A DNA stretch of 32,000 nt. Source: Acaryochloris marina MBIC11017. Its GTDB lineage: Bacteria; Cyanobacteriota; Cyanobacteriia; Thermosynechococcales; Thermosynechococcaceae. This document shows, in pieces, positions 2,988 through 19,635 of this stretch. How positions within the stretch are numbered: the stretch's first letter is position 1; each line of letters starts with the position of its first letter. The stretch spans positions 5,400,001 through 5,432,000 of the forward strand of contig NC_009925.1 of NCBI RefSeq assembly GCF_000018105.1, read 5' to 3'. The notes below the pieces were generated by a model. The model worked only from the letters and a program-made list of their open reading frames with translations, was not told where the DNA came from and searched no databases. Both the position numbers and the translations under genes were made by a program.

Positions 2988-3806
2988 ATGACAAGGTTCC
3001 GTTTTTCAGCTTTTGTACTCGTCATCCTCAGTGCCTCTTTAGGGGGCTGTTCATTTTTGAACCAAACATCAGCTGGGAATAATAGTCGTGCAAACCTGGA
3101 ATCATTTTGTGAGGAAGCAATCAACAACAGCGAAAGTACCAATCGTCCCCAACCTGAAGCACCGACTATTCTGGGGACAAGTCCTGAACAAGCTTGGGTC
3201 CGTCCAAGCTTCAAGGGTCCTGATGGGCGATTTGGTGCGGGAACGGCTTTCGTTGTGAGTCAAGATAATGCCGTTTTCTTACTAACGGCACACCATCTGT
3301 TTGGTCCGGCTGGAGGGTTAGACCGCGAATATAGATGGTCAGAAATGCCAAATCTCGTCTCTGGTGCGTCAGGAGAGAACCCTCTCGGCAAGGTTTCAGT
3401 CATCACAGGGAAAGCACTTCCAGTTAAGGGGGCTCGCGGTATGCAGGGAACTCAATTAAATGCGGACCTTGCTATCTTTCCAGTTCAATCGGAAAGCCAA
3501 GTGCACGCTATGCCCCTTGCCCAAACCCTCCCTCAAGTTGGTGATGATGTATGGCTAGTGGGTGAAGTCATCGGTAGCTCTGAATATCGGCACAAAGCTG
3601 TCGTGAATGAAGTTTCGAAGGAAGGCATATATTACCGTTTTGATAACAAGATTGAACTCCGGGCAACGAGTGGTGCCCCCATCGTGGATGCGAAGGGACA
3701 GGTAGTCGCGATGAATCTTGGCGGCGGAGAATATCAGGGGGCCATTATGGGGATTGGCAACCCAGCACCTGTTATGAACTGCCATTTACAGGCCGCTTGG
3801 CATTGA
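2988..3806 (+). CDS. trypsin-like serine protease, predicted lipoprotein
   Basis: The ORF-track start at 2934 is probably over-extended. The Met at 2988 gives a signal peptide plus lipobox (FVLVILSASLGGC). A His (LLTAHHLFG), Asp (DLAIF) and Ser (ATSGAPIV) triad pattern is present. Confidence 0.7.
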   Translation: MTRFRFSAFVLVILSASLGGCSFLNQTSAGNNSRANLESFCEEAINNSESTNRPQPEAPTILGTSPEQAWVRPSFKGPDGRFGAGTAFVVSQDNAVFLLTAHHLFGPAGGLDREYRWSEMPNLVSGASGENPLGKVSVITGKALPVKGARGMQGTQLNADLAIFPVQSESQVHAMPLAQTLPQVGDDVWLVGEVIGSSEYRHKAVVNEVSKEGIYYRFDNKIELRATSGAPIVDAKGQVVAMNLGGGEYQGAIMGIGNPAPVMNCHLQAAWH

Positions 3807-3931
3807 TAGATTGAACTATTGCCTAGGCAGAAACTGCCCTAAATTGAAGCTTGGCGGATACTTCACAACTGTGGGGATCTGCTACAGGGACACTTCACTG
3901 CATGCTCTCGGTAAATAAACGGTTTAAAGCA

Positions 3932-4537
3932 ATGTCTTCATTGATAGGACATAGTCTAGCGGGGTTAACGGTGGGGGTTACCCATAAGCAATTCTACTTC
4001 CTAACAACCTCCTGGACAAAGCTGCTGTGGATAATCTGGTTAGTGGTCGTTGCGATCGCACCTGACTTTGATTACATCGTCCCTTTCCTACATCCCAGTG
4101 CCCATGAAGGCTTGCGGATTACTCATTCCCTTTGTTATGCCCTGTTGTTACCCTCTCTCACCGTTATTGGTTTGAGGGTATTGGGATGCGATCGCAAATC
4201 TCTCCTCAAGGCTACGACACAATTGGCATTGGCAAGTGCATCCCATATGGGCTTAGACCTTTTGGTTGGCGTCACTAGTCTGCCCATCCTGTGGCCTTTC
4301 AGTAACCATGTATTCAAGCTCCCTTTCGGTCTACTTCCGAGTGCGGGTAAGCCCAGTCTGTCCAACTATTACTTCTACTACAACTTGGGCATTGAAATGG
4401 GCATTCTGATTCCCTTAAGTTGCAGTTTACTCATCAGCCAATATAAAAGACTTTCTCTGTGGAGATGGGGCATCATTGGTTTACTGCTGACCGTATCCAC
4501 CTATTTCATGCATTTGGCCTATGGGTTAAGTCGCTAG
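3932..4537 (+). CDS. membrane-bound metal-dependent hydrolase (YdjM/DUF457-like)
   Basis: The start MSSLIGHSLAGL, the APDFDYI and HEGLRITHSL motifs, and multiple TM segments support the call. The ORF-track start at 3851 is probably too long. Confidence 0.6.
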   Translation: MSSLIGHSLAGLTVGVTHKQFYFLTTSWTKLLWIIWLVVVAIAPDFDYIVPFLHPSAHEGLRITHSLCYALLLPSLTVIGLRVLGCDRKSLLKATTQLALASASHMGLDLLVGVTSLPILWPFSNHVFKLPFGLLPSAGKPSLSNYYFYYNLGIEMGILIPLSCSLLISQYKRLSLWRWGIIGLLLTVSTYFMHLAYGLSR

Positions 4538-9911: not shown

Positions 9912-9993
9912 GGGTCGGTGCCCGAGTGGTTAATGGGGGCGGACTGTAAATCCGCTGGCTACGCCTACGCTGGTTCAAATCCAGCCCGGCCCA
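9912..9993 (+). tRNA. tRNA-Tyr (anticodon GTA), class II with long variable arm; CCA not encoded
   Basis: The acceptor stem is GGGTCGG/CCGGCCC. The anticodon arm is GCGGA-CTGTAAA-TCCGC. The variable arm is GGC-TAC-GCC and the T-arm GCTGG-TTCAAAT-CCAGC, with discriminator A. Confidence 0.95.
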
Positions 9994-10006
9994 TTGTCTT
10001 CGATTT

Positions 10007-10078
10007 GCCCATGTGGCTCAGTGGTAGAGCACACCCTTGGTAAGGGTGAGGTCACCGGTTCAATCCCGGTCATGGGCT
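10007..10078 (+). tRNA. tRNA-Thr (anticodon GGT); CCA not encoded
   Basis: The acceptor stem is GCCCATG/CATGGGC and the D-arm GCTC-AGTGGTA-GAGC. The anticodon arm is CACCC-TTGGTAA-GGGTG and the T-arm ACCGG-TTCAATC-CCGGT. It lies 13 nt after tRNA-Tyr. Confidence 0.95.
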
Positions 10079-10462
10079 TTAACTAGAAAATCGGCAGCAT
10101 TTCTCTAGAACGTTTCAATCTCATGCGTTGAGGTGAGAATCATCACAATGCAGGACGCTGCTCTTATGAGAGATAATTTCCATCTCTTTAATTTTCTGAC
10201 ATCTATTGATAACAAAGCTAGCATGGCGATATTTAGAATCGTCTTGTTACCGAGTACACCCCACACCCTAATGACATAAATCCTTAGCAGAGAATACTCA
10301 AAGGCTGGTGAAGTCTACAACCTGGCTTGTATGAAGGTGATTAAGGCGGGCAGGTTAGCTCTGGCTACCAATGGCATCTCCTCAGTCATAAACAGTTCTG
10401 TCAATCTTTTCATACAGACCTAATCAATACATTTTTAATTTTGGCAATCGAGAGGTGATTTT

Positions 10463-11200
10463 ATGAAGCTTAATCAGCTTATTGCTGTCATGCAGTCCGT
10501 GAAAAAAAGAGCTGCAGACGAAAAGACAAAGATATACAAACAGATTCAAAAACCTGAGCTATTTCAAGGTTTGTCGCGGACCTACTCACCGAAGGATGAA
10601 GAAGGCCACGTCTATCCCCCCGAGTCTCAAAAGGTCACATATAAGGCGGGAGATGCGCTAGAAGCCTTTTCAAGGGCCTGCCAAGATTTATTTGACAGTG
10701 CTTTGACCCAAGATGAAGCCAATACCTCAGCAAGGGCCAACATCACCTTGGATGACGGTACAGTAATTGCGTCAGATGTCCCAGTCACATACTTGATGTT
10801 CTTAGACAAGCAGTTGACTGATATCAGGACATTTATCAGCCATATCCCGATCTTGCCCATTGATGAAGACTGGGAATATGACTCTAACCGAGGGTTTTAT
10901 GTCACTCGCCCTCGCGAAACCACTAAGACCAAGAAGGTACAAGAGTTTGTGATCGCTGCCGAGGCAACCGAACATCACCCAGCCCAGGTCAAAGAGGTCA
11001 CCAACGATGTAGTTGAAGGAACTTGGTCTTTGGTTAAGTTCTCTGGTGCTTTGCCACAGTCAGAACTAGATGAAATGCGACTTCGACTGGATGCACTTCA
11101 AAAAGCTGTTATCAAAGCTAGAGAGGAAGCCAATAGCATCGAAATAACTCGAAGAACTATATCGAATAACATTTTTGACTATTTATTTGGGCAGCGTTAG
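10463..11200 (+). CDS. uncharacterised 245-aa protein with no domain recognised by eye
   Basis: A strong SD (GAGAGGTGA) ends 4 nt before the ATG. It is the only long ORF on this strand in the AT-rich islet. The composition looks soluble, with a helical N-terminus, an EATEHHPAQV motif and a C-terminal coiled-coil-like segment (LRLDALQKAVIKAREEAN). Confidence 0.75.
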   Translation: MKLNQLIAVMQSVKKRAADEKTKIYKQIQKPELFQGLSRTYSPKDEEGHVYPPESQKVTYKAGDALEAFSRACQDLFDSALTQDEANTSARANITLDDGTVIASDVPVTYLMFLDKQLTDIRTFISHIPILPIDEDWEYDSNRGFYVTRPRETTKTKKVQEFVIAAEATEHHPAQVKEVTNDVVEGTWSLVKFSGALPQSELDEMRLRLDALQKAVIKAREEANSIEITRRTISNNIFDYLFGQR

Positions 11201-11228
11201 ATTGAACAAGAGCATAGATTTAGATTCA

Positions 11229-11316
11229 GTATCAAAAAAAGTGATTGGATGGTTCAAATCCTCCCTCTCGCATCCTTAAGCGAGAGTATGCTAATGGGTA
11301 AAGCAGCTTTTGATAC
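11229..11316 (+). ncRNA. circularly permuted tRNA-like RNA A (YrlA/Y-RNA-like architecture)
   Basis: Reading 5' to 3', the closing strand is GTATC-AAA-AAAAG (11229-11241), followed by a 5-nt linker TGATT. The T-arm is GGA(T)GG-TTCAAAT-CCTCC (11247-11264). The 7-bp acceptor-like helix pairs CTCTCGC (11265-11271) with GCGAGAG (11280-11286) and is capped by the loop ATCCTTAA. TA then occupies the U8-A9 positions. The D-arm is TGCT-AATGGGTAA-AGCA (11289-11305). The closing strand CTTTT-GATAC (11307-11316) pairs back to the 5' end, leaving a 3-A bulge. Confidence 0.6.
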
Positions 11317-11387
11317 ATTAAGGCTAAAAAATTAAACTCAGTTTATTGCTCTAGTCTTAATCTAAAATCCACTCTTGTGAATCAACC

Positions 11388-11496
11388 AAAGCTCAACAAC
11401 ACATGGGATATACGAGTTCAACTCTCGTCCCGCTCCCCAAATCTTGAGCGGGTAGTTTAATGGCAAAACACCCTTGTATTAAGCTGATTGAGCTTT
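11388..11496 (+). ncRNA. circularly permuted tRNA-like RNA B (YrlA/Y-RNA-like architecture)
   Basis: The outer helix pairs AAAGCTCAA (11388-11396) with TTGAGCTTT (11488-11496). The inner helix pairs AACACATGGG (11398-11407) with CCCTTGTATT (11471-11480) at 8 of 10 positions. The T-arm ACGAG-TTCAACT-CTCGT (11412-11428) is perfect. The 7-bp acceptor-like helix pairs CCCGCTC (11429-11435) with GAGCGGG (11446-11452), with loop CCCAAATCTT. TA follows, then the D-arm GTTT-AATGGCA-AAAC (11455-11469). Confidence 0.65.
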
Positions 11497-11540
11497 AATC
11501 AGACATAAACTAGTCACAAGTTAATGGCTCTAATGCATTG

Positions 11541-11576
11541 AACCCCGGCAGGCGGTATTTGCCGGGGTTTGTCTTT
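11541..11576 (+). terminator. strong intrinsic terminator closing the ORF245 plus tRNA-like RNA unit
   Basis: A GC-rich 9-bp stem pairs AACCCCGGC (11541-11549) with GCCGGGGTT (11561-11569) around an 11-nt loop. A T-rich run TTTGTCTTT spans 11568-11576, its first two Ts closing the stem. On the minus strand the tail is poor, so it is mainly plus-strand. Confidence 0.8.
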
Positions 11577-12059: not shown

Positions 12060-12536
12060 TTACAACATAATCGTCGTCGCTTCATTCTCATCTAATAGAG
12101 ATGAGCAACCATATTGAGTAATCTGCGAAAAATCAGCCAAGGAATCCTCTTTAGTTATGATCTGACTAGATGAATAAAAAACCGCCTTGATCACCCCTCC
12201 AAACAAAATTCGATCGCCATTCACTAGAGTATGTCTTTGAACACGGCTGCCATTGACAAAGACACCATTAAAGCTCGATTTGCCATCAACCACACCATCA
12301 ATCAGTTCATATTGATAAGTTCCTTGGCTTAAATCAGATATCTTCTCCACAGTGGCATGGATACGGGAAATCATATCATTGGCTACAACAATATCACTGG
12401 ATGAATCTCGACCAATGGTGTACTTCCAGTTCATTAATGTGACTATTTTTTTAGGCTTTGTGTTAATAACAAGATAATGATGCTGCTTGAAGTGATGTGT
12501 TTGTTGATACATACTATTTCTGTATATGCATATCAA
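12060..12536 (-). CDS. stand-alone FHA-domain protein
   Basis: The FHA signature is YTIGRDSSSDIVVANDMISRIHATV ... SSFNGVFVNGSRV ... LVNGDRILFGG. The start is ambiguous: the Met at 12536, or the Met at 12512 (MYQQTHH). Confidence 0.8.
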   Translation of the reverse strand: MICIYRNSMYQQTHHFKQHHYLVINTKPKKIVTLMNWKYTIGRDSSSDIVVANDMISRIHATVEKISDLSQGTYQYELIDGVVDGKSSFNGVFVNGSRVQRHTLVNGDRILFGGVIKAVFYSSSQIITKEDSLADFSQITQYGCSSLLDENEATTIML

Positions 12537-12952
12537 ATACCTAAGATCTTTCTTGAGATACTTAATATAATTGTTGTTCTATTACAATAATTTCTAGAGA
12601 TATTGAACGTGATTTATATCACATTTCCCCGCAAAAACTCTTAAGCCACCAAATATAGTCAGACCTCGCTTAAAAATAATTAATTTTATATTCGTTGTTA
12701 GAACTTAAAAAATTACTTAGACTAAAATCGTCAATTCAATATCTATAGAAATTCACCCAATTCTGGCCAAATCATAGTCAGAATTGAGCATGGTAACACT
12801 TAAGATAAACTGGCTTAAAAAATAACCCTGCGTAGCTGCATTAACCTTGGCAGTTCATAAAGGAATCAATTTAACCCACAAATGCCAATCAAGAGACATG
12901 TCTGTCAATTATGGGCAGATTATCGTTGGGATTCTGACACCATACGTAAAAT

Positions 12953-13339
12953 TTAGCTTTGGTCACTGGCTGTTGGAGGATCAGGCACTTCAGGAGGCGG
13001 TACCTTTTGCAGATAAGGTTCAATGGGCACCACAGTTGTCATTTTGTTGAGAATGGCCTCGATTTCGCTCAGGTACTCACATTGAAAGCGATCTTGAGTA
13101 GATAAGACTCGCCGTAAAGCATCCACCACAATTTTCTCGCAGGCTTCAGCAGACAATCCCATTTCACTCTGATGCCCAACTATAAAGTGATGTAAGAAAT
13201 ATGCGTATCCTCCCGTCATTAATCCCTGTAGCAGCGTATTTTCTTGCCTAAGGGCTTCTAGTTCTTGTTCAAGATTTTCCATAGTACTTGGTGAGGGAAG
13301 GAGACAATTGACATCATGGTCCAATCCAAATTCTTTCAT
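12953..13339 (-). CDS. hypothetical protein
   Basis: 128-aa ORF with a coiled-coil-like segment (ENLEQELEALRQENTLLQ) and a Pro-rich C-terminus. I recognise no family. Confidence 0.5.
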   Translation of the reverse strand: MKEFGLDHDVNCLLPSPSTMENLEQELEALRQENTLLQGLMTGGYAYFLHHFIVGHQSEMGLSAEACEKIVVDALRRVLSTQDRFQCEYLSEIEAILNKMTTVVPIEPYLQKVPPPEVPDPPTASDQS

Positions 13340-13452
13340 GAAAGCTGCTATGGATACCAGTATCAGTCGGTGATTGAGGATCTCAGGCCAAAATTGTGTT
13401 GCTTGTGTCAGTTCTGATTACGATAGATAAGGCATGACGAATGGAATAAAAG

Positions 13453-14064
13453 ATGATCAAACGTTGGTTTGCGATCGCACTATTGTCTCTAATCACTTGG
13501 CTAGGCCCCGTCAGTATGGCGGCTCAGGCCCAAGACCTCGCCAAGGCCACCTTTGCGGGCGGTTGTTTCTGGTGTATGGAGAAGCCCTTTGATGTGATTG
13601 ATGGTGTCGTTTCCACCACATCAGGATATACTGGCGGCAAAAAATTGAATCCTACCTATAAAGAGGTATCGTCCGGAAAAACCGGTCATGCGGAATCCGT
13701 ACAGGTGGAATATGACCCTAGTAAAGTCAGCTATGAAACCCTACTAGAGGCATTTTGGACCAATGTTGATCCATTGGATGCTGGGGGACAATTTTGCGAT
13801 CGCGGTGACCAATACCGCACCAATGTCTTCTACCATTCAGACGAGCAAAAAGCCCTCGCCGAAAAATCTAAAGCTGAAATAGATAACTCTGGTAAATTTG
13901 CCACGCCCATCGTCACGGAAATTGTCGCCGCTGAGACCTTTTATCCTGCAGAAGACTATCACCAAAACTATTACCAAACCAACTCTAATTGGTATCGCTT
14001 TTACCGGTACAGCTGTGGCCGAGATCAGCGACTCGCTAAACTCTGGGGAGAAGAAAATAGCTAA
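13453..14064 (+). CDS. msrA: peptide-methionine (S)-S-oxide reductase MsrA with N-terminal signal peptide
   Basis: The catalytic motif GGCFWCME and the GHAESVQVEYDP and DYHQNYY motifs are present. The N-terminus MIKRWFAIALLSLITWLGPVSMAAQA looks like a Sec signal. Confidence 0.95.
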   Translation: MIKRWFAIALLSLITWLGPVSMAAQAQDLAKATFAGGCFWCMEKPFDVIDGVVSTTSGYTGGKKLNPTYKEVSSGKTGHAESVQVEYDPSKVSYETLLEAFWTNVDPLDAGGQFCDRGDQYRTNVFYHSDEQKALAEKSKAEIDNSGKFATPIVTEIVAAETFYPAEDYHQNYYQTNSNWYRFYRYSCGRDQRLAKLWGEENS

Positions 14065-14088
14065 TCCAAATTCCCCTATCGAAGCAAG

Positions 14089-14688
14089 CTAGACATCTGC
14101 AGTCAGTCCAAGAAATTCAGAGAATCGTGCATAGGTTGTATCGATACTCCTATCGATCTCACTCCGTCTTTCCACAAAGGTGAAGGAAGCTGTTTCACTC
14201 GACTTCTGGATAAAATTCACTTGAATATGCGAGTAAGTATTTTTACCAATCGGAAACCAACCAGATTTTTCTACCTGAATCACTTCACACCTAGCAATAT
14301 CCTGTAAGTTGCCTTCTACTTTTTGGCGACGGAGGTAGCTGTTCTGTTCAATGACATATTGATCTTGAGCTTTATCAAAATGGCATCGCAGAACCTTTCC
14401 CTGCAGAAGCCAAAGCCAGAATCCTAACACCGCCATCAGACATCGAACCGGGATAAACGCCTGATGATTGAAAAAGTCATATCCACTGGAATCAGCCCAG
14501 AACAAATTGGAGAAGAAAGGCAACAGCGAGAGCATTAGAATCCACAGTCCAATCCCACGCCCGGGGAAAGAAACATCTGCATCCAGAATCAGGACTTGAT
14601 CGTCTTTTTCAGTGACCCATAAGCCCACACGGGTGCTCACTTGACGCATAAATGCCGCTTGGATATTACCCATTTGGTCTGAGAACAT
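14089..14688 (-). CDS. hypothetical membrane protein
   Basis: 199-aa ORF with two to three hydrophobic segments (GLWILMLSLLPFF, CLMAVLGFWLWLL). No motif recognised. It lies 88 nt downstream of the invertase gene on the same strand. Confidence 0.5.
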   Translation of the reverse strand: MFSDQMGNIQAAFMRQVSTRVGLWVTEKDDQVLILDADVSFPGRGIGLWILMLSLLPFFSNLFWADSSGYDFFNHQAFIPVRCLMAVLGFWLWLLQGKVLRCHFDKAQDQYVIEQNSYLRRQKVEGNLQDIARCEVIQVEKSGWFPIGKNTYSHIQVNFIQKSSETASFTFVERRSEIDRSIDTTYARFSEFLGLTADV

Positions 14689-14776
14689 GAATAACTTTAA
14701 TTTTTATCCTCGCCATTCCAAGGATGCCCGATCGTCAGAACAGGACAGACATGAGACAAAATCGAGTTTAGCTCTA

Positions 14777-16159
14777 TCAGACTTCTGAGCTATCCTCTTC
14801 GTCAAAAATAAGCGGAGCAATCTGCTCTGGATTGTCTTGGAGCAACGTCGCCAACAGAAAACTAGCAATGGTCCAGGTTTGATATTTCCGCGAAGATTTA
14901 CCAACCAAACGTCCATTCTTACCGTCATAATATTCAGGCCATTCGTCTTCTTCAAAGCGGTAGGACGCAGTCATCCAAGCCTGTTCACCTAATTTTTGGC
15001 GTTTGGTTTTAATGGCAGCCGCCATCAACATCCACAGCAAAACGGGCCAGCTGCCACCATTGTGATAGGACCAGGGGGTATTTTTAGGATCCGAACCCGT
15101 CGTAATCCGCCACTCTAACCCTTCTACCGCCGGAAAACAGATTTTCATGGGCATCCGCCCGACTAAATCGTCCCACTGTAGCTCAATTAAATCCATAATT
15201 TGTTGACTCTGAGTCGAATCAGCCAGAGAAGTGATGATCGCCATTAAATTTCCCAAGGCAAAGAAGCGAAAATCCATTCGACTAGGGCCAAGGTTTCCAG
15301 CCAAATACCCTGCCCAGTCTGGCATCCATTCCGTTAGCCAGTAGGGGATGGAATCAGGATAAATATTGAACTTATTCATCACTGACTCCCCAAATTGATC
15401 TCCCTTATAGCGGTGAATTTCATTGAGTTTGTCTAGATCCAGCCAATAGTAGTGGCGCACCCGAAACCTCAGCGCCTTCAAGCGTTCATCAATTTTTCGA
15501 ATCCAGGCCGCTCCTTCTGAAGTGGGTGTCAACAACTCCCTTGCCGATCGCAATGCCCCGTAAAACAACGCTTGGATTTCCAACGGATGGCCATCAATCC
15601 CCATGCGGCGATCAATCATACAGGCCGCATCAGGCACCAACAAAGTGGGGGACATCTCAAACTGCGGACTGAGACAAAGCTTGAGAATCAGGTGCAACCC
15701 TTCCTGAAAATCAGATCCCTCCGCTAAAGCAGTATCTCCAGACGCTTTCCCATACGCCCGCAGGACAATAATCCACCACAAACACGAATCAATCGGTGTT
15801 ACTCGACCAATCGCATGGTCGCCAAAGTCAGCCGTGAGATATTGACGATCTGCGTCCGATTGCACCTTAAAGCTGGCAGGCATCAGTCCCAGAGGAACCT
15901 CAAAGCCATCCACACGCCGAACCTGCTTTTGTAACCCTAAGGTCTCCACCAAAAAGTTTTTAACAATATCATGTCGTTTCTGCAGCAAAAAGACGAAGGC
16001 GGAAGGGACAAAATCCCGCACAAAGCACTGATCGTAATTCAGGGCATCCGCTTCTGGATCCTGAGCAGCAATCGTGCCCACGGGGCGTTCCTGATAGTAG
16101 ATAATGGCAGACTCATGCAGCTTTTCTGCCAATTGGAGAATCGGTAATTCAGACATCAT
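14777..16159 (-). CDS. alkaline/neutral invertase (glycoside hydrolase family 100)
   Basis: [44 protein letters not shown] and [12 protein letters not shown] are typical GH100 invertase blocks. The likely start is MMSELP at 16159; the ORF-track start at 16192 adds 11 aa. Confidence 0.9.
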
Positions 16160-16242
16160 GCCCCTCTGTTCTTGATGGGAACATGGTTCCAAAGCGAATG
16201 CTCCCGTTGGATAGTACTCAGGATACCCATCGAGCCGGAAGG

Positions 16243-16272
16243 ATTATAATAGTCGAGTAAAGAGCAGCTAAA
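16243..16272 (-). promoter_or_regulatory. possible promoter of the invertase gene
   Basis: On the minus strand, TTTAGC (16267-16272) is followed by 18 nt and then a perfect TATAAT (16243-16248). The site overlaps the stop codon of the upstream kinase gene. Confidence 0.35.
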
Positions 16273-17494
16273 GACAGTTTTTCAGCGCTTGCTGCAGTTC
16301 TTTGGCACTTTGGAACCGATGATCCGGATGGGGATGGGTTACTTTTTCAATAATGGCTTTAATCTGAGTGGGAATGCTGAGGATATTGGCCAATTCAATC
16401 CGATAGCCATGGCCCAGATTTTTGTAGAACTGCAATGGACTTTGCCCAGTAATCAAAAACAAAAGCGTCGCACCAATGCCATAGAGATCCGATTGAATGG
16501 TAGGACGGCCTAAGCCCTGTTCTGGAGCACTGTAACCCTCAACGGCAATCCGGGTTCCAGGGACGAGGCTTGCTTCTTTAACCGCACCAAAATCAATAAT
16601 GAAAACTTGGCTATCTCGATTCCGAACCAAAATATTACCGGGTTTCAAATCTCGATGAATAATCGGTGGGTCATGATGATGAATATAGTCCAAAATGTCA
16701 CAGGCCTGAATCATCCATTGCAGCACTTGATGTGGTGGCAATGGGCCACGTTGGTTCACCCACCGATCTAAATCTTGGCCATGAATCAGCTCCATCACCA
16801 GGTATTGCTTTTCATTCTCGGTAAAAAAATCGTACAAGCGGGGAATACCAGCATGCTGCAAGGATCTCAACATCCGCGCTTCCCGTTTGAATAATTCCTG
16901 TGCTTTAGGAATTTTTTCCATATCGGCATTCATTTCCTTGAGCACCTGAAGCTGTGGTTTTCTACTCTTATCATCCAGGTGCCGCACCAAGAATGTAGTT
17001 CCCATGCCCCCCATACCAATGACCTTCAACACTTCGTAAGGACCAATTGTCTGGAGAACATTCAGAGATTGACCACAATGTACGCAAAAAAGGTTGCCAG
17101 GTAAATTCCCAAAATGGGAGCAGGAAGAACTCTGAGAGCGAGTGGTTGCGGATTGACGTTTGGCTTCAATCTCGTGGGGAAGTTGCTGCTGAAATCTCAA
17201 AATCGGGCCTGTCAATCCTAGCTGAATAATCGTGTCATTTTTAATTTCTGTCTGGTTCGTCAGCTTCCCGTTTACGAACGTTCCATTACTGCCCAGACTC
17301 TTGATTTGCCAGGTAAAGGAGGACTCTATGTGTTTGATCAGGTGCAGTTCAAGGTGATAACGAGACACCAGTATGTCTCTGAGAACAATGTGATTATCGG
17401 AAGAACGGCCAATATTAATTTGCTTAGACGTGGTGAAGAGCCATTGTCTGATAGGAGCCTTATTAGTGGGATCAAGAAGGGTTAATGTAACCAC
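16268..17494 (-). CDS. FHA domain / zinc-ribbon / Ser-Thr protein kinase fusion
   Basis: The N-terminal FHA domain reads INIGRSSDNHIVLRDILVSRYHLEL ... GSNGTFVNGKL. A Cys pair motif CSHFGN..CVHCGQ follows. The Hanks kinase motifs are GMGGMGTTF, VLKE, HRDLKPGNIL, DFG and SAPE. Confidence 0.9.
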   Translation of the reverse strand: MVTLTLLDPTNKAPIRQWLFTTSKQINIGRSSDNHIVLRDILVSRYHLELHLIKHIESSFTWQIKSLGSNGTFVNGKLTNQTEIKNDTIIQLGLTGPILRFQQQLPHEIEAKRQSATTRSQSSSCSHFGNLPGNLFCVHCGQSLNVLQTIGPYEVLKVIGMGGMGTTFLVRHLDDKSRKPQLQVLKEMNADMEKIPKAQELFKREARMLRSLQHAGIPRLYDFFTENEKQYLVMELIHGQDLDRWVNQRGPLPPHQVLQWMIQACDILDYIHHHDPPIIHRDLKPGNILVRNRDSQVFIIDFGAVKEASLVPGTRIAVEGYSAPEQGLGRPTIQSDLYGIGATLLFLITGQSPLQFYKNLGHGYRIELANILSIPTQIKAIIEKVTHPHPDHRFQSAKELQQALKNCL

Positions 17495-17535
17495 ATTGCA
17501 AAATTAATCAGTCAAGGATTATGAGTAGGGTCCCG

Positions 17536-19635
17536 TTAATAGGTCTGGGAAGATCGCTGAGGTTGGACTCTCATCAGGATGGCAATGACCGTTATATTGT
17601 CGTGACCATTATGTTCGTTAGCCAGCATTACTAGCTCATTGACCCCTTGTTGCAAGGTAACTTGAGAGTTAAGCATGGGCAATAAGTATTGGTCACAGTG
17701 GACTTCCAGTAGGTGATTATCGGTTAATCCATCGGAACAAATCAACAATAAAGTATCTTCGGATGCTGTTAAGAGCTGGATATCTGGCTCTAATGCCTCA
17801 TTCTCTCTAGGTCCTAAGGCTTGAGTGAGTTGATAGGCATCTGGCCGGGCATAGGCCACTGCAGGATCGGTGCCTCGTTGAATCTCTCGTTGCCCCACCT
17901 CATGGTCCACGGTGATTTGCTCTAATCCGGATTGATGGGTCAAGCGATATAAACGACTATCACCGACATGAGCAATTTGAATATGCGTATCTTGCACCAG
18001 CGCCATCACTAAGGTGGTGCCCATCCGATTATTCCCCGCCTTCTCCTCATTCAGCTGAAAAAGAGCATGGTTCGCTGCATAAATGGCGTCCTTCACAATC
18101 GCAGTATCAGGGAATTCAGTCTGCCAATGGGCTTGAAAATATTGCGTTAGGGTCTCCGTGGCCAAAGAACTCGCAATCTCTCCCCCCGCATGTCCACCCA
18201 TACCATCACAGAGGATATAGAGGCCTTGACCAGACACATGATTCTGATGGGGATTACAAATTTGTTGCAGTCGCTGATCAATCGCAAAATAATCTTCATT
18301 ATGATGTCGATCTCGACCATCATCGGTTTGGCCTGCCGCCGCCAAATGAACCAACTGATTGGGTAGGATCAGGGTTGGCGCAGCACCAGTTTCAGCCCCT
18401 GAAGACTGGTGAGCCTGGGTGTGAGTTATAGAGGGCTGGAGGCTAGGCAGGCGCTGACTTAATTCATTTAAGTATTCCAGCAGCTCTGCTTGGGTAACAT
18501 TTTCAGCCGATTGCAAATTATCCAACAAGGGCTGAAATTGCTCTAAAAGAGAAGCTCCTAATCCTTGCAATAAATCTAACCAGACATATCTTAAATCGTC
18601 CCAGGTCGGGGATTGGATGGAGGTACTCCCCTTTTCGGACTTGCCGGGCCAGAACTGACCGGGTTCAAATAGGAGTTGCTGAAGGCACAGGATTTGTCCC
18701 TGATCGACTTTCAAATTTTCTTTGTTGAGAACACTAGGCAAGCATTGCCAGGGTGCACAAACGACTGCAAAGTTCAGGGTTTGCTCTAACCAGTACAGAA
18801 TTTGAGTGGGACTCGCCTGCCCCTCGGCAATGACTTCCTTTAATGAGGGTAAGTCAGCGCGGTTCTCTAATAAGATGACCGCCTGTTGTTCTGACTGCCA
18901 AGCATCATGAACATGAGGAAGTAGGAGAGGAAACTGTTGCCTCAAGGCTAAGTAAGGCTCTAGAACGATTGGGAAAGGTAAAGGCTGCGCTTCCAAAAAA
19001 CCCTTAATCGTTTCTGGTTGCCCCATGTCAGCGGGATTGATGGTTCCCTCTAGTTGGTTCAGCATGATCGCAAGAGGAGAAACCTGCAGTGGCTGCGTAT
19101 CTAGAATCGTGAGTTCGAGATTGCCATTCTCTGCCAGTTTCGGGTCTTGAGGCACCATTGATGCCAATAGCTGATATCGAGGGTTCTGATCCAAAAAACT
19201 CTGGATAGCAGGAGACAGAGATGGAATCTTTGAGTCACTCGACTGCTGTAACACTGCTGTCGAGGAACCAGAGGAACTGAGTTCCACAGTATCTATTTCT
19301 CCATCAGACTGATCACCCACTAAGCGTTCAATTGAGTCTAATAGCTCTTCTGTTGAAGGCTCCTCATCCAAAAGGGCAACAGATTCTCCCATAGGAATCG
19401 TCTCGACTGCAGACAGCTCTGCCATGGTGGGGGATGGGTCGAGGTTAGGCAGTGGGGTAATTAGCGTCCACCAGATTGTGCCGGTTAAATGATCACATTG
19501 GGGACAGTGAGTCACCTCAAAATCTACTAAATGTCCACAATTTGCACAGTGTTTTTGAGTCAGGGAAGTGCCACATTGTTGACAGAAACGATGATCGTCA
19601 ATGTTGTGATAATTACACTGGGGACATTTAATCAT
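17536..19635 (-). CDS. double zinc-ribbon protein with C-terminal PP2C-family Ser/Thr phosphatase domain
   Basis: The N-terminus carries CPQC..CQQCG and CANCG..CPQC. The C-terminal PP2C motifs are HHNEDYF, LCDGMGGHAGGE, HVGDSRLY, CSDGLTD and GHDNITV. The gene ends 41 nt upstream of the kinase gene, so the two probably form an operon. Confidence 0.9.
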   Translation of the reverse strand: MIKCPQCNYHNIDDHRFCQQCGTSLTQKHCANCGHLVDFEVTHCPQCDHLTGTIWWTLITPLPNLDPSPTMAELSAVETIPMGESVALLDEEPSTEELLDSIERLVGDQSDGEIDTVELSSSGSSTAVLQQSSDSKIPSLSPAIQSFLDQNPRYQLLASMVPQDPKLAENGNLELTILDTQPLQVSPLAIMLNQLEGTINPADMGQPETIKGFLEAQPLPFPIVLEPYLALRQQFPLLLPHVHDAWQSEQQAVILLENRADLPSLKEVIAEGQASPTQILYWLEQTLNFAVVCAPWQCLPSVLNKENLKVDQGQILCLQQLLFEPGQFWPGKSEKGSTSIQSPTWDDLRYVWLDLLQGLGASLLEQFQPLLDNLQSAENVTQAELLEYLNELSQRLPSLQPSITHTQAHQSSGAETGAAPTLILPNQLVHLAAAGQTDDGRDRHHNEDYFAIDQRLQQICNPHQNHVSGQGLYILCDGMGGHAGGEIASSLATETLTQYFQAHWQTEFPDTAIVKDAIYAANHALFQLNEEKAGNNRMGTTLVMALVQDTHIQIAHVGDSRLYRLTHQSGLEQITVDHEVGQREIQRGTDPAVAYARPDAYQLTQALGPRENEALEPDIQLLTASEDTLLLICSDGLTDNHLLEVHCDQYLLPMLNSQVTLQQGVNELVMLANEHNGHDNITVIAILMRVQPQRSSQTY

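What the first reader, a model, noticed from the sequence alone, without database searches (positions are those of the whole stretch)
11229..11316. Permuted tRNA-like RNA A: T-arm, capped acceptor hairpin, then D-arm
tRNA core invariants are all present on the plus strand: the T-loop TTCAAAT, a D-loop with GGG, TA at the U8-A9 positions and a perfect 7-bp acceptor helix. Their order is circularly permuted relative to a tRNA gene. The acceptor ends are joined by an 8-nt loop. The position of the anticodon arm is taken by a helix formed between the element's 5' end (GTATC..AAAAG) and 3' end (CTTTTGATAC), with a 3-A bulge. A colinear tRNA gene or pseudogene on either strand cannot give this order. 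The T-stem carries one bulged T, so copy A is slightly less canonical than copy B. A further 8-bp pairing is possible between TTTAGATT (11219-11226) and AATCTAAA (11359-11366), but it is weakly supported.
Basis: seen in the sequence. Interest (0 to 1): 0.8.

Follow-up and report, generated by a model that had tools for sequence, protein, structure and literature searches.

The report
tRNA-mimic RNA pair beside DUF7873
The element is a real, conserved non-coding RNA with a circularly permuted tRNA shape; it is the first of two such RNAs that almost always follow an uncharacterised protein gene (DUF7873) in bacteria of many phyla and in phages, a three-part cassette I found described nowhere.

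Summary
Observation confirmed.

A covariance model built only from elements of other taxa finds it at 47.2 bits (E about 6e-14) and copy B at 40.3 bits.

Both RNAs lie directly downstream of, and on the strand of, a DUF7873 gene (10463-11200). The arrangement gene, RNA1, RNA2, terminator recurs in 83 of 84 loci examined. These cover Cyanobacteria, Actinomycetota, Chloroflexota, Myxococcota, Planctomycetota and Deinococcota. It also recurs in all six phage genomes examined; four of them have tRNA genes beside the gene.

Covariation is strong: 99.6% of cells paired, 14 of 15 pairs compensatory, and the 15:48 Levitt pair is consistent in 131 of 131 sequences.

The architecture is that of YrlA-type bacterial Y RNAs, but membership fails. 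The Rfam score is below threshold or absent, there is no Ro60/Rsr gene nearby, and the GNCGAA motif is missing. DUF7873 has no detectable sequence or fold relative.

Best reading: a Ro60-independent, Y-RNA-like ribonucleoprotein cassette whose tRNA-like heads engage tRNA enzymes. That function is inferred, not shown.

The parts
10463..11200 (+). DUF7873 protein gene (245 aa), the conserved protein partner of the cassette
   Evidence: Pfam PF25283, 323 bits. The two RNAs sit beside this gene family in 83 of 84 loci and in 6 of 6 phages examined.
11209..11352 (+). Basal scaffold plus apical tRNA-like domain.
   Evidence: P1 pairs AGAGCA 11209-14 with TGCTCT 11347-52. The homologous helix shows compensatory changes at 3 pairs and in outgroups: GGAGTAA/TTACTCC, GGGTGAA/TTCATCC.
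   Evidence: MFE fold. R1 scores 47.2 bits, E 5.6e-14. ARAGORN calls a tRNA after in-silico permutation.
11247..11264 (+). T-arm GGA(T)GG / TTCAAAT / CCTCC, with a bulged T at 11250
   Evidence: The T-stem covaries across 137 distinct sequences.
11265..11286 (+). 7-bp acceptor helix closed by the 8-nt loop ATCCTTAA
   Evidence: All 7 pairs show compensatory change in the family.
11287..11305 (+). U8-A9 equivalents (TA) and D-arm TGCT / AATGGGTAA / AGCA, with G18 G19 and A14 A15
   Evidence: Position 15 pairs consistently with position 48 (T 11246) in 131 of 131 family members.
11337..11354 (+). Conserved 3' scaffold motif CTCAGTTTATTGCTCTAG (family consensus CUCAGAYUMUYGCUCCAG). It contains the P1 3' strand.
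   Evidence: Nearly invariant block in alignment A2 across phyla. It is kept even in loci that lost the tRNA-like domain.
11380..11497 (+). RNA2 (copy B). 5' motif AATCAACC 11380-87; closing stem 11388-96 with 11488-96; T-arm 11412-28; acceptor hairpin 11429-52 whose loop begins C-CCA; D-arm 11455-69.
   Evidence: Fold z = -4.4. Rfam YrlA 31.3 bits, below the gathering score. R1 40.3 bits. Family alignment and consensus fold.
11541..11576 (+). Terminator-like G+C-rich hairpin AACCCCGGCA...TGCCGGGGTT followed by TGTCTTT, ending the cassette
   Evidence: Seen in the sequence and in the fold. The consensus scan did not list it. Similar hairpins follow RNA2 in relatives.
11175..11203 (+). Promoter-like site TTGACT-17-TAGATT, which would start transcription near 11210, the first base of P1 (weak)
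   Evidence: Such matches occur at background frequency in the region (6 found, 4.7 expected), so this is only a lead.

Best explanation
Copy A is the apical tRNA-like domain of a roughly 145-nt structured non-coding RNA (RNA1, 11209-11352). RNA1, a second paralogous RNA (RNA2, about 11380-11497) and the upstream DUF7873 gene form one conserved cassette that ends in a terminator-like hairpin.

Shown:
- Each RNA has the design of a YrlA-type bacterial Y RNA. A basal stem made from its 5' and 3' regions carries conserved sequence blocks. An apical module presents T-arm, 7-bp acceptor hairpin and D-arm in circularly permuted order.
- The nucleotides that build the tRNA L-shape are all in place: U8, A14, R15:Y48, G18 G19 and the T-loop.
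- The structure is under selection, and the cassette is widespread in bacteria and phages.
- There is no Ro60/Rsr gene nearby.

Inferred:
- DUF7873 binds the conserved basal scaffolds, the role Ro60 plays for Y RNAs.
- The tRNA-like heads recruit enzymes that recognise tRNA shape: RNase P, the CCA-adding enzyme and modification enzymes.
- Because the acceptor helix is always 7 bp and its loop usually begins N-C (often N-CCA), RNase P probably opens the loop. That would leave a nicked two-piece RNA with a tRNA-like 3' end, as was shown for Mycobacterium smegmatis YrlA.
- The resulting particle probably acts in tRNA or RNA surveillance, or in phage-host conflict over tRNAs.
For: Structure and homology
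- R1, built without the window, scores copy A at 47.2 bits and copy B at 40.3 bits.
- Over 84 sources there are 147 hits. All but three stray hits on true tRNA genes are on the gene strand.
- 99.6% of cells are paired, against 72.8% in shuffles and 44-56% when partners are slid. 14 of 15 pairs have compensatory changes.
- The Levitt pair is A:U in 126 and G:C in 5 sequences, with no mismatched combination.
- P1 covaries.
- All substitutions in the close relative fall at unpaired positions.
- ARAGORN accepts the rejoined sequences as tRNAs.

Linkage to DUF7873
- The pair is present in 83 of 84 loci from at least 6 phyla.
- In Myxococcales it lies upstream of the gene, on the same strand.
- It is present in 6 of 6 phages examined. 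In Gordonia phage Phendrix, Arthrobacter phage Mimi, Vibrio phage D505 and a Rhizobium phage the gene sits inside or beside tRNA gene arrays.
- No other neighbouring gene is conserved.

Modularity like YrlA and YrlB
- 13 of 15 Streptomyces loci without a type-1 core keep the RNA1 scaffold but carry a short hairpin in place of the tRNA module.

Processing precedent
- M. smegmatis YrlA has a 7-bp acceptor stem, is cleaved by RNase P and receives CCA (PMC4201824).
- Here all acceptor helices are 7 bp. The loop begins N-C in about 90% and N-CCA in 27 of 131 sequences, including window copy B and most phage copies.
Against: - No expression, processing or binding data exist for any member.
- DUF7873 has no recognisable RNA-binding domain or fold relative. 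The best Foldseek E-value against the PDB is 0.02; recurrent weak Cas7 matches have TM about 0.14. Binding therefore rests on linkage alone.
- Window copy A departs from the family consensus. Its T-stem is bulged and its acceptor loop begins A-T rather than N-C.
- N-CCA is not universal.
- One locus (L010) has the gene but no detectable RNA.
- I could not check whether the host genome encodes Ro60 elsewhere.
Confidence: 0.6

Rival explanations
1. They are ordinary YrlA/Y RNAs that serve a Ro60 (Rsr) protein encoded elsewhere in the genome. On this reading DUF7873 is merely a linked gene.
For: The permuted tRNA-like architecture is the same. The Rfam YrlA model gives its only near-significant hits here: 31.3 bits for copy B, and 27.6 and 27.5 bits in Kitasatospora.
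Against: - All scores are far below the gathering score of 69, and copy A gives no YrlA hit at E up to 10.
- No Rfam family reaches threshold on these RNAs in 18 loci.
- Described YrlA genes lie within 4 kb of rsr on the same strand (PMC4201824). There is no TROVE protein in the 32-kb window or in eight other annotated contexts.
- The GNCGAAN0-1G motif is absent.
- Linkage is to DUF7873 in 83 of 84 loci.
Confidence: 0.1
2. They are cis-acting 3'-UTR elements of the DUF7873 mRNA. tRNA-like processing or stability signals would be cut by RNase P to mature or protect the message, with no function of their own in trans.
For: They are always on the gene strand. In the window RNA1 begins 8 nt after the stop codon, and one terminator-like hairpin follows both RNAs. 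In phages the gene lies within tRNA arrays that are processed in this way.
Against: - In Myxococcales the pair lies upstream of the gene.
- Two distinct paralogous RNA types are each conserved across phyla, with conserved unpaired sequence blocks and a full set of tRNA tertiary-contact nucleotides. That is much more than a cleavage signal needs.
- The scaffold persists when the tRNA-like part is lost.
Confidence: 0.15
3. They are genuine circularly permuted tRNA genes, as in Cyanidioschyzon merolae, that mature into decoding tRNAs.
For: The order of parts is as in permuted tRNA genes. The acceptor stem is 7 bp and N-CCA follows it in many copies. ARAGORN accepts the rejoined sequence once an anticodon loop is supplied.
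Against: - There is no anticodon loop. The anticodon-stem equivalent runs on into a long conserved scaffold.
- Spacer and variable-loop lengths at the junction vary between clades.
- The module is replaced by a plain hairpin in 13 loci.
- Bacteria are not known to have the splicing endonuclease that this maturation route requires (established knowledge; also noted in bioRxiv 10.1101/312249).
Confidence: 0.03
4. They are decayed tRNA fragments or junctions of tandem tRNA genes left by rearrangement or by integration of a mobile element next to tRNA-Tyr and tRNA-Thr.
For: The cassette lies 385 nt downstream of two tRNA genes. A true tandem-tRNA junction in the window partly matches R1 (9953-10038, 16.6 bits).
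Against: - Covariation and cross-phylum conservation show selection on the structure.
- The acceptor strands of one element pair perfectly with each other.
- No att-like direct repeats flank the region.
- Real tRNA genes lie within 3 kb in only 3 of 60 bacterial loci.
Confidence: 0.02

Closest known systems
YrlA (Y RNA-like A; Rfam RF02553), the tRNA-mimicking Y RNA bound by bacterial and phage Ro60/Rsr
   Same: - The order is the same: stem formed by the 5' and 3' ends, variable region, T-arm, closed acceptor stem-loop, D-arm.
- tRNA tertiary-contact nucleotides are conserved, including compensatory 15:48 changes.
- It occurs in both bacteria and phages.
- It is accompanied by a second RNA (YrlB), and some versions lack the tRNA module.
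- M. smegmatis YrlA has a 7-bp acceptor stem, is cut by RNase P and gains CCA (PMC4201824; 10.1101/312249).
   Different: - No Ro60/TROVE gene is nearby, and the GNCGAAN0-1G motif is absent.
- Rfam scores are 27-31 bits or nil, against a threshold of 69.
- The conserved scaffold sequences differ: RNA1 has GGAGYR...CUCAGAYUMUYGCUCCAG and RNA2 has AUCRAYC.
- The linked protein is DUF7873, a 245-aa protein unrelated in sequence or predicted fold to Ro60.
- Every copy has a 7-bp acceptor helix, whereas most YrlA stems are shorter.
Circularly permuted tRNA genes of Cyanidioschyzon merolae and some other algae and archaea
   Same: The 3' half (T-arm, acceptor 3' strand, often CCA) precedes the 5' half (acceptor 5' strand, D-arm). 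The acceptor is closed by a loop, and the transcript ends pair as an anticodon-stem extension.
   Different: There is no anticodon loop and no bulge-helix-bulge motif. No splicing endonuclease is known in bacteria. Here the ends continue into a conserved scaffold, so no decoding tRNA can result.
Two-piece (permuted) tmRNA genes of cyanobacteria and alpha-proteobacteria
   Same: The gene order is permuted, with T-arm and acceptor 3' strand plus CCA upstream of the acceptor 5' strand. Maturation removes the intervening loop.
   Different: There is no tag reading frame and there are no pseudoknots. A full D-arm with G18 G19 is present. ARAGORN and the Rfam tmRNA models find nothing here.
tRNA-like 3'-end elements processed by RNase P (mascRNA of MALAT1; viral tRNA-like structures)
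   Same: A tRNA-shaped module downstream of a longer transcript that is likely to be recognised by tRNA-processing enzymes.
   Different: Those elements are colinear, not permuted. They are eukaryotic or belong to RNA viruses, and they are not paired with a dedicated protein gene.

Membership tests
YrlA / bacterial Y RNA (RF02553) | Scores at or above the Rfam gathering score (69 bits) with the YrlA covariance model | tested here: not met
   Copy A gives no hit at E up to 10 and copy B scores 31.3 bits. The Kitasatospora homologues score 27.6 and 27.5 bits. No hit reaches the gathering score in the window or in 18 cassette loci.
YrlA / bacterial Y RNA (RF02553) | Encoded within about 4 kb of a Ro60/Rsr (TROVE) gene, on the same strand (PMC4201824) | tested here: not met
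   No TROVE domain among the ORFs of the 32-kb window. None among called genes within 6-10 kb in L001, L003, L004, L086, L087 and L088, or on the shorter contigs L095 and L096. I could not check whether rsr lies elsewhere in the genome.
YrlA / bacterial Y RNA (RF02553) | GNCGAAN0-1G motif near the 5' end (presumed Ro60 contact) | tested here: not met
   Absent from 11200-11246 and 11370-11411. The family's conserved 5' blocks are GGAGYR and AAGYU (RNA1) and AUCRAYC (RNA2).
YrlA / bacterial Y RNA (RF02553) | tRNA-like domain in the order V, T, acceptor stem-loop, D, enclosed by a stem formed from the RNA's 5' and 3' parts | tested here: met
YrlA / bacterial Y RNA (RF02553) | Nucleotides for tRNA tertiary interactions, including a compensating 15:48 Levitt pair | tested here: met
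   U8, A14, G18 G19 and the T-loop TTCRANY are present. The 15:48 pair is A:U in 126 and G:C in 5 sequences, with 0 inconsistent of 131.
YrlA / bacterial Y RNA (RF02553) | Bound by Ro60/Rsr in vivo | not testable with these tools
   Needs immunoprecipitation.
tRNA (RF00005), colinear gene | Colinear cloverleaf detected by tRNA finders | tested here: not met
   ARAGORN and Rfam find only tRNA-Tyr (9912-9993) and tRNA-Thr (10007-10078) in the window.
Circularly permuted tRNA gene | The rejoined halves give a complete tRNA, including a 7-nt anticodon loop | tested here: not met
   ARAGORN accepts the rejoined sequence only when an artificial anticodon loop is supplied. Direct rejoining gives an undetermined 'tRNA-???' with a 4-nt anticodon for copy A and nothing for copy B. 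The stem continues into the scaffold.
Circularly permuted tRNA gene | The arms have tRNA-compatible geometry: 7-bp acceptor, 2-nt 8-9 linker, D-arm, 5-bp stem, 4-5-nt variable loop, 5-bp T-stem with 7-nt loop | tested here: met
   Capped constructs of copy A (78 nt) and copy B (74 nt) are called as tRNAs. Junction spacers vary in other clades.
Permuted (two-piece) tmRNA | Tag-peptide reading frame and pseudoknots; detected by ARAGORN or the Rfam tmRNA models | tested here: not met
Known anti-phage defence systems (PADLOC) | The protein matches a defence-system model | tested here: not met
   No PADLOC hit for DUF7873 at E up to 0.1. NCBIfam gives none and PHROGs nothing significant.

The most novel reading that the evidence does not exclude
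DUF7873 plus its two permuted tRNA-like RNAs is a previously unrecognised ribonucleoprotein system, a functional analogue of Ro60-Y RNA built on an unrelated protein. Bacteria and large phages share it. After RNase P opens the acceptor loops, it would display tRNA-like CCA ends. These could act as decoys, sensors or adaptors in the contest over tRNAs, for example against anticodon or acceptor-end nucleases, or in tRNA repair and quality control.
Probability: 0.3. Interest if true: 0.9.

Novelty: new variant of a known kind. Interest (0 to 1): 0.78.

Why it matters
Bacterial Y RNAs have been defined by their partnership with Ro60. Here the same unusual RNA design, a circularly permuted tRNA mimic on a conserved stem, is tied to a different and wholly uncharacterised protein.

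The protein family is large: 2,654 clusters at 50% identity, at least 587 matching genomic stretches in the species-representative genome set, and 75 phage records. It also sits in phage tRNA gene arrays.

If confirmed, three things follow:
- tRNA-mimic ribonucleoproteins would be a broader class than Ro60-Y RNA.
- DUF7873 would gain a testable function.
- Two RNA families absent from Rfam would be added. Gene callers currently mis-annotate these regions as odd tRNAs or small ORFs.

It also offers a simple three-part system for asking what a tRNA-shaped handle is for.

Tried and rejected
- **Rfam** at gathering and at permissive thresholds gave only sub-threshold YrlA hits and chance hits.
- **Canonical tRNA or tmRNA:** none found.
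- **DUF7873 function:** PADLOC, NCBIfam and PHROGs gave nothing. A PDB sequence search gave nothing. Foldseek of a confident model (pLDDT 89.6) against PDB and BFVD gave nothing at E up to 0.001. The repeated weak Cas7 matches (E 0.02-0.1, TM about 0.14) are not treated as evidence. Permissive Pfam scans of 22 members gave only noise.
- **Conserved neighbour genes:** none. The RNA ligase plus HD/kinase pair next to the gene in L086 does not recur in any other locus. A naive ORF clustering was swamped by spurious high-GC ORFs.
- **Adjacency to tRNA genes** holds in phages but not in bacteria, where only 3 of 60 loci have one within 3 kb.
- **Integration-site hypothesis:** no att-like repeats.
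- **Coding hypothesis:** no ORF longer than 34 aa within the RNA region.
- **Full RNA1 scaffold model:** attempted beyond P1, as a long irregular hairpin or pseudoknot (GCUGA/UCAGY in actinobacteria; 11219-26 with 11359-66 in the window). I could not align it in register across phyla and found no covariation, so it stays unresolved.
- **Literature:** searches for DUF7873, for YrlA papers since 2018, and for permuted or tRNA-like RNAs in phages or Streptomyces found no description of this cassette.

Full report
**1. The observation**

- closing-helix strands GTATC (11229-33) and AAAAG (11237-41), separated by AAA
- TGATT (11242-46)
- T-arm GGATGG-TTCAAAT-CCTCC (11247-64), which forms 5 pairs if T11250 bulges
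- CTCTCGC-ATCCTTAA-GCGAGAG (11265-86)
- TA (11287-88)
- D-arm TGCT-AATGGGTAA-AGCA (11289-11305)
- G, then CTTTT GATAC (11307-16)

RNAfold recovers this structure as the minimum-free-energy fold: -24.1 kcal/mol, z = -3.0. Copy B (about 11388-11497) folds the same way with z = -4.4. ARAGORN and Rfam at gathering thresholds find only tRNA-Tyr (9912-9993) and tRNA-Thr (10007-10078) in the window. A permissive Rfam search matches copy B to YrlA at 31.3 bits (threshold 69) and gives nothing for copy A.

**2. Context**

The window is a cyanobacterial chromosome segment. It carries genes for L9, DnaB, alkaline invertase, FHA-kinase and PP2C proteins, SepF and others. No protein has a TROVE (Ro60) domain.

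The gene directly upstream of copy A, on the same strand, is a 245-aa DUF7873 protein (10463-11200, 323 bits). Its stop codon lies 8 nt before the RNA. A G+C-rich terminator-like hairpin (11541-76) follows copy B.

**3. Relatives**

DUF7873 has 2,137 relatives in the 90%-clustered protein set. In the exhaustive search it has 2,654 clusters at 50% identity, almost all single-domain proteins of 240-260 aa.

A scan of one genome per species found at least 587 encoding stretches. The 80 best loci were fetched. A simple pattern scan (T-arm, 7-bp hairpin, 2 nt, D-arm) showed two permuted tRNA-like elements downstream of nearly every gene, on the gene strand.

I then built covariance model R1 from 21 proximal elements of other taxa, excluding the window.
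- It finds window copy A at 47.2 bits (E 5.6e-14) and copy B at 40.3 bits.
- The junction of the two real tRNA genes scores only 16.6 bits, a useful negative control.
- Over 84 sources it gives 147 hits at E below 0.01, and 144 of these lie in the cassette. All 144 are on the gene strand and beside the gene.
- With filters off, one further locus is recovered and one (L010, a Spirulina MAG) truly lacks the RNAs. That makes 83 of 84.
- In Myxococcales the pair lies upstream of the gene.

**4. Structure is under selection**

On the 137 distinct aligned sequences, 99.6% of cells form standard pairs. The figure is 72.8% after shuffling and 44-56% when partners are slid. Fourteen of 15 pairs show changes on both sides, and the covariation score is 0.71 against 0.215. 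This alignment was fitted to the model, but an independent MAFFT/RNAalifold analysis gives the same three helices, with 12 of 15 pairs compensatory.

The tertiary Levitt pair is A15:U48 in 126 sequences and G15:C48 in 5, with no inconsistent case. Positions 8-9 are UA or UG.

The closing, anticodon-stem-like helix also covaries:
- GTATC/GATAC in the window against GTGTC/GACAC in Nostoc
- CGCGG/CCGCG, CAGGGG/CCCCTG and CCGTTT/AAACGG elsewhere

Its spacer and variable-loop lengths differ between clades.

In the closest relative (L095), all six substitutions in the element fall at unpaired positions, and the bulged T is kept.

With the proximal 5 bp of the closing helix capped, ARAGORN calls tRNAs for both copies.

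**5.

Conserved blocks flank the tRNA-like domain across phyla:
- 5' GGAGYR then AAGYU
- 3' CUCAGAYUMUYGCUCCAG

The blocks GGAGYR and YRCUCC pair to form helix P1 (window 11209-14 with 11347-52). P1 has compensatory changes at three positions, and further ones in the outgroups: GGAGTAA/TTACTCC and GGGTGAA/TTCATCC.

With linkers of 4 and 6 nt a pseudoknot is conceivable, and actinobacterial copies allow an analogous GCUGA/UCAGY pairing. I found no covariation for either, so this is unresolved.

In 13 of the 15 Streptomyces loci that lack a type-1 core, the RNA1 scaffold is intact but the tRNA-like domain is replaced by a short, variable hairpin. The scaffold is therefore the constant part and the tRNA head is a module. 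RNA2 keeps its tRNA head in every locus where RNA2 was found. It has its own long stem and conserved motifs, AUCRAYC at the 5' side and CUGAU and UUAAAC at the 3' side.

**6. Phages**

DUF7873 is encoded in 75 phage records, from hosts Vibrio, Gordonia, Rhizobium, Klebsiella, Serratia, Arthrobacter, Pseudanabaena, Ralstonia, Rhodococcus and Microcoleus. It is also in four actinobacterial plasmid or chromid records.

All six phages examined carry R1 hits just downstream of the gene: two each in Phendrix, Pam2, Mimi and the Klebsiella jumbo phage, and one each in the Rhizobium and Vibrio phages.

The gene's position relative to tRNA genes differs:
- In Gordonia phage Phendrix it sits in the middle of the tRNA array.
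- In Arthrobacter phage Mimi it follows eight tRNA genes.
- In the Vibrio and Rhizobium phages tRNA genes adjoin it.
- In bacteria such adjacency is rare, 3 of 60 loci. The window, with tRNA-Tyr and tRNA-Thr 385 nt upstream on the same strand, is one of the exceptions.

Phage acceptor loops begin ACCA, UCCA or GCCA. Across the 131 distinct sequences aligned from the bacterial loci and the window, the loop begins N-C in about 90% and N-CCA in 27 of 131. Window copy B begins C-CCA and window copy A begins A-T.

**7. The protein**

The AlphaFold model is confident (pLDDT 89.6). Neither the PDB nor BFVD contains a significant structural match, and no sequence-based library gives a lead. No neighbouring gene is conserved in nine annotated contexts. 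One locus (L086) has an RNA ligase and an HD/kinase gene immediately upstream, but this does not recur.

**8. Comparison with what is known**

The published description of YrlA matches this architecture. It describes a stem of 5' and 3' ends, then V, T, closed acceptor stem and D arms. It also describes conserved tRNA tertiary contacts with 15:48 compensation, presence in phages, a companion RNA, and RNase P cleavage with CCA addition where the acceptor stem has 7 bp (PMC4201824; 10.1101/312249).

The defining features of membership are not met:
- The Rfam score is below threshold or absent.
- No Ro60 gene is nearby.
- The GNCGAA motif is absent.
- The scaffold sequences are different.

The element therefore works like a YrlA-type Y RNA but is not a member of that family as defined. 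True permuted tRNA genes and two-piece tmRNA genes share the gene order. They are excluded by the missing anticodon loop, and by the missing tag frame and pseudoknots.

**9. Mechanism: shown and inferred**

Shown:
- The fold is conserved and under selection.
- There are two paralogous RNA types.
- Both are tightly linked to DUF7873 in position and orientation, in bacteria and in phages.
- The tRNA head of RNA1 is modular.
- The geometry is tRNA-compatible.

Inferred:
- The three parts are co-transcribed.
- DUF7873 binds the conserved scaffolds.
- RNase P opens the acceptor loop and a CCA end is made.
- The cassette has a role in tRNA or RNA surveillance, or in phage-host conflict over tRNAs.

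The rivals are a Ro60 partner encoded elsewhere, purely cis-acting 3'-UTR processing signals, real permuted tRNAs, and tRNA debris. I rank each of them lower, for the reasons given under each.

**10. Novelty**

I found no Rfam family at threshold and no paper that mentions DUF7873 or this cassette. The literature I could search is limited to open-access papers and preprints, so an earlier description cannot be excluded. I rate it a new variant of a known kind: a Y-RNA-like tRNA mimic with a new protein partner and two new RNA families.

Noticed in passing
L086:7912-9814 (upstream of DUF7873 at 10001-10735): In one cyanobacterial contig an RNA ligase (PF09414) gene and an HD plus AAA_33 kinase-like gene lie immediately upstream of DUF7873 on the same strand. 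The pairing is reminiscent of an RNA-repair module. tblastn found no counterpart in any other fetched locus.
   Followed up: partly
L096:2813-2892, 3789-3870, 3956-4036, 4255-4336: This cyanobacterial contig carries four permuted tRNA-like elements around its DUF7873 gene: one upstream and three downstream, followed by tRNA-Asp at 4457-4534. The number of RNAs per cassette is therefore not fixed at two.
   Followed up: partly
L026, L030, L032, L036, L039, L042, L060, L062: about 3751-3851: ARAGORN calls odd 88-89-nt 'tRNA-Ala/Val/Phe' genes, with the anticodon at position 30 or 34, that overlap the 5' scaffold and T-arm of RNA1. These are probably false calls that annotation pipelines could propagate.
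   Followed up: no
L091 (Vibrio phage D505): 3778-3912 and 3925-4020: Two tiny annotated 'hypothetical protein' ORFs (44 and 31 aa) lie between the DUF7873 gene and the next tRNA gene. The second overlaps the R1 hit at 3946-4046, so they are probably mis-annotated non-coding RNA.
   Followed up: no
L004:2154-2486 and L090:2063-2591: A tmRNA gene lies about 3 kb upstream of the cassette in the Myxococcales locus. Gordonia phage Phendrix carries a tmRNA in the same tRNA array as its DUF7873 gene.
   Followed up: no
window 9953-10038: The junction of tandem tRNA-Tyr and tRNA-Thr (T-arm of the first, D-arm of the second) gives a weak R1 match of 16.6 bits. This illustrates the published idea that permuted tRNA mimics could arise from dimeric tRNA genes.
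   Followed up: no
L007:2580-2691: RNA1 of this Chamaesiphon MAG has an insertion of about 30 nt, with hairpin potential, inside its D-loop. The rest of the element is intact.
   Followed up: no
L010:3723-3790: The Spirulina MAG has a DUF7873 gene followed at once by a strong terminator. No permuted tRNA-like RNA is found anywhere in its 6.7-kb locus. It is the only exception among the 84 loci.
   Followed up: partly
window 12060-19635 (- strand): Downstream of the cassette lies a signalling cluster on the opposite strand: an FHA protein, an FHA plus Ser/Thr-kinase protein and a zinc-ribbon plus PP2C phosphatase. It is not conserved next to DUF7873 in other loci.
   Followed up: no
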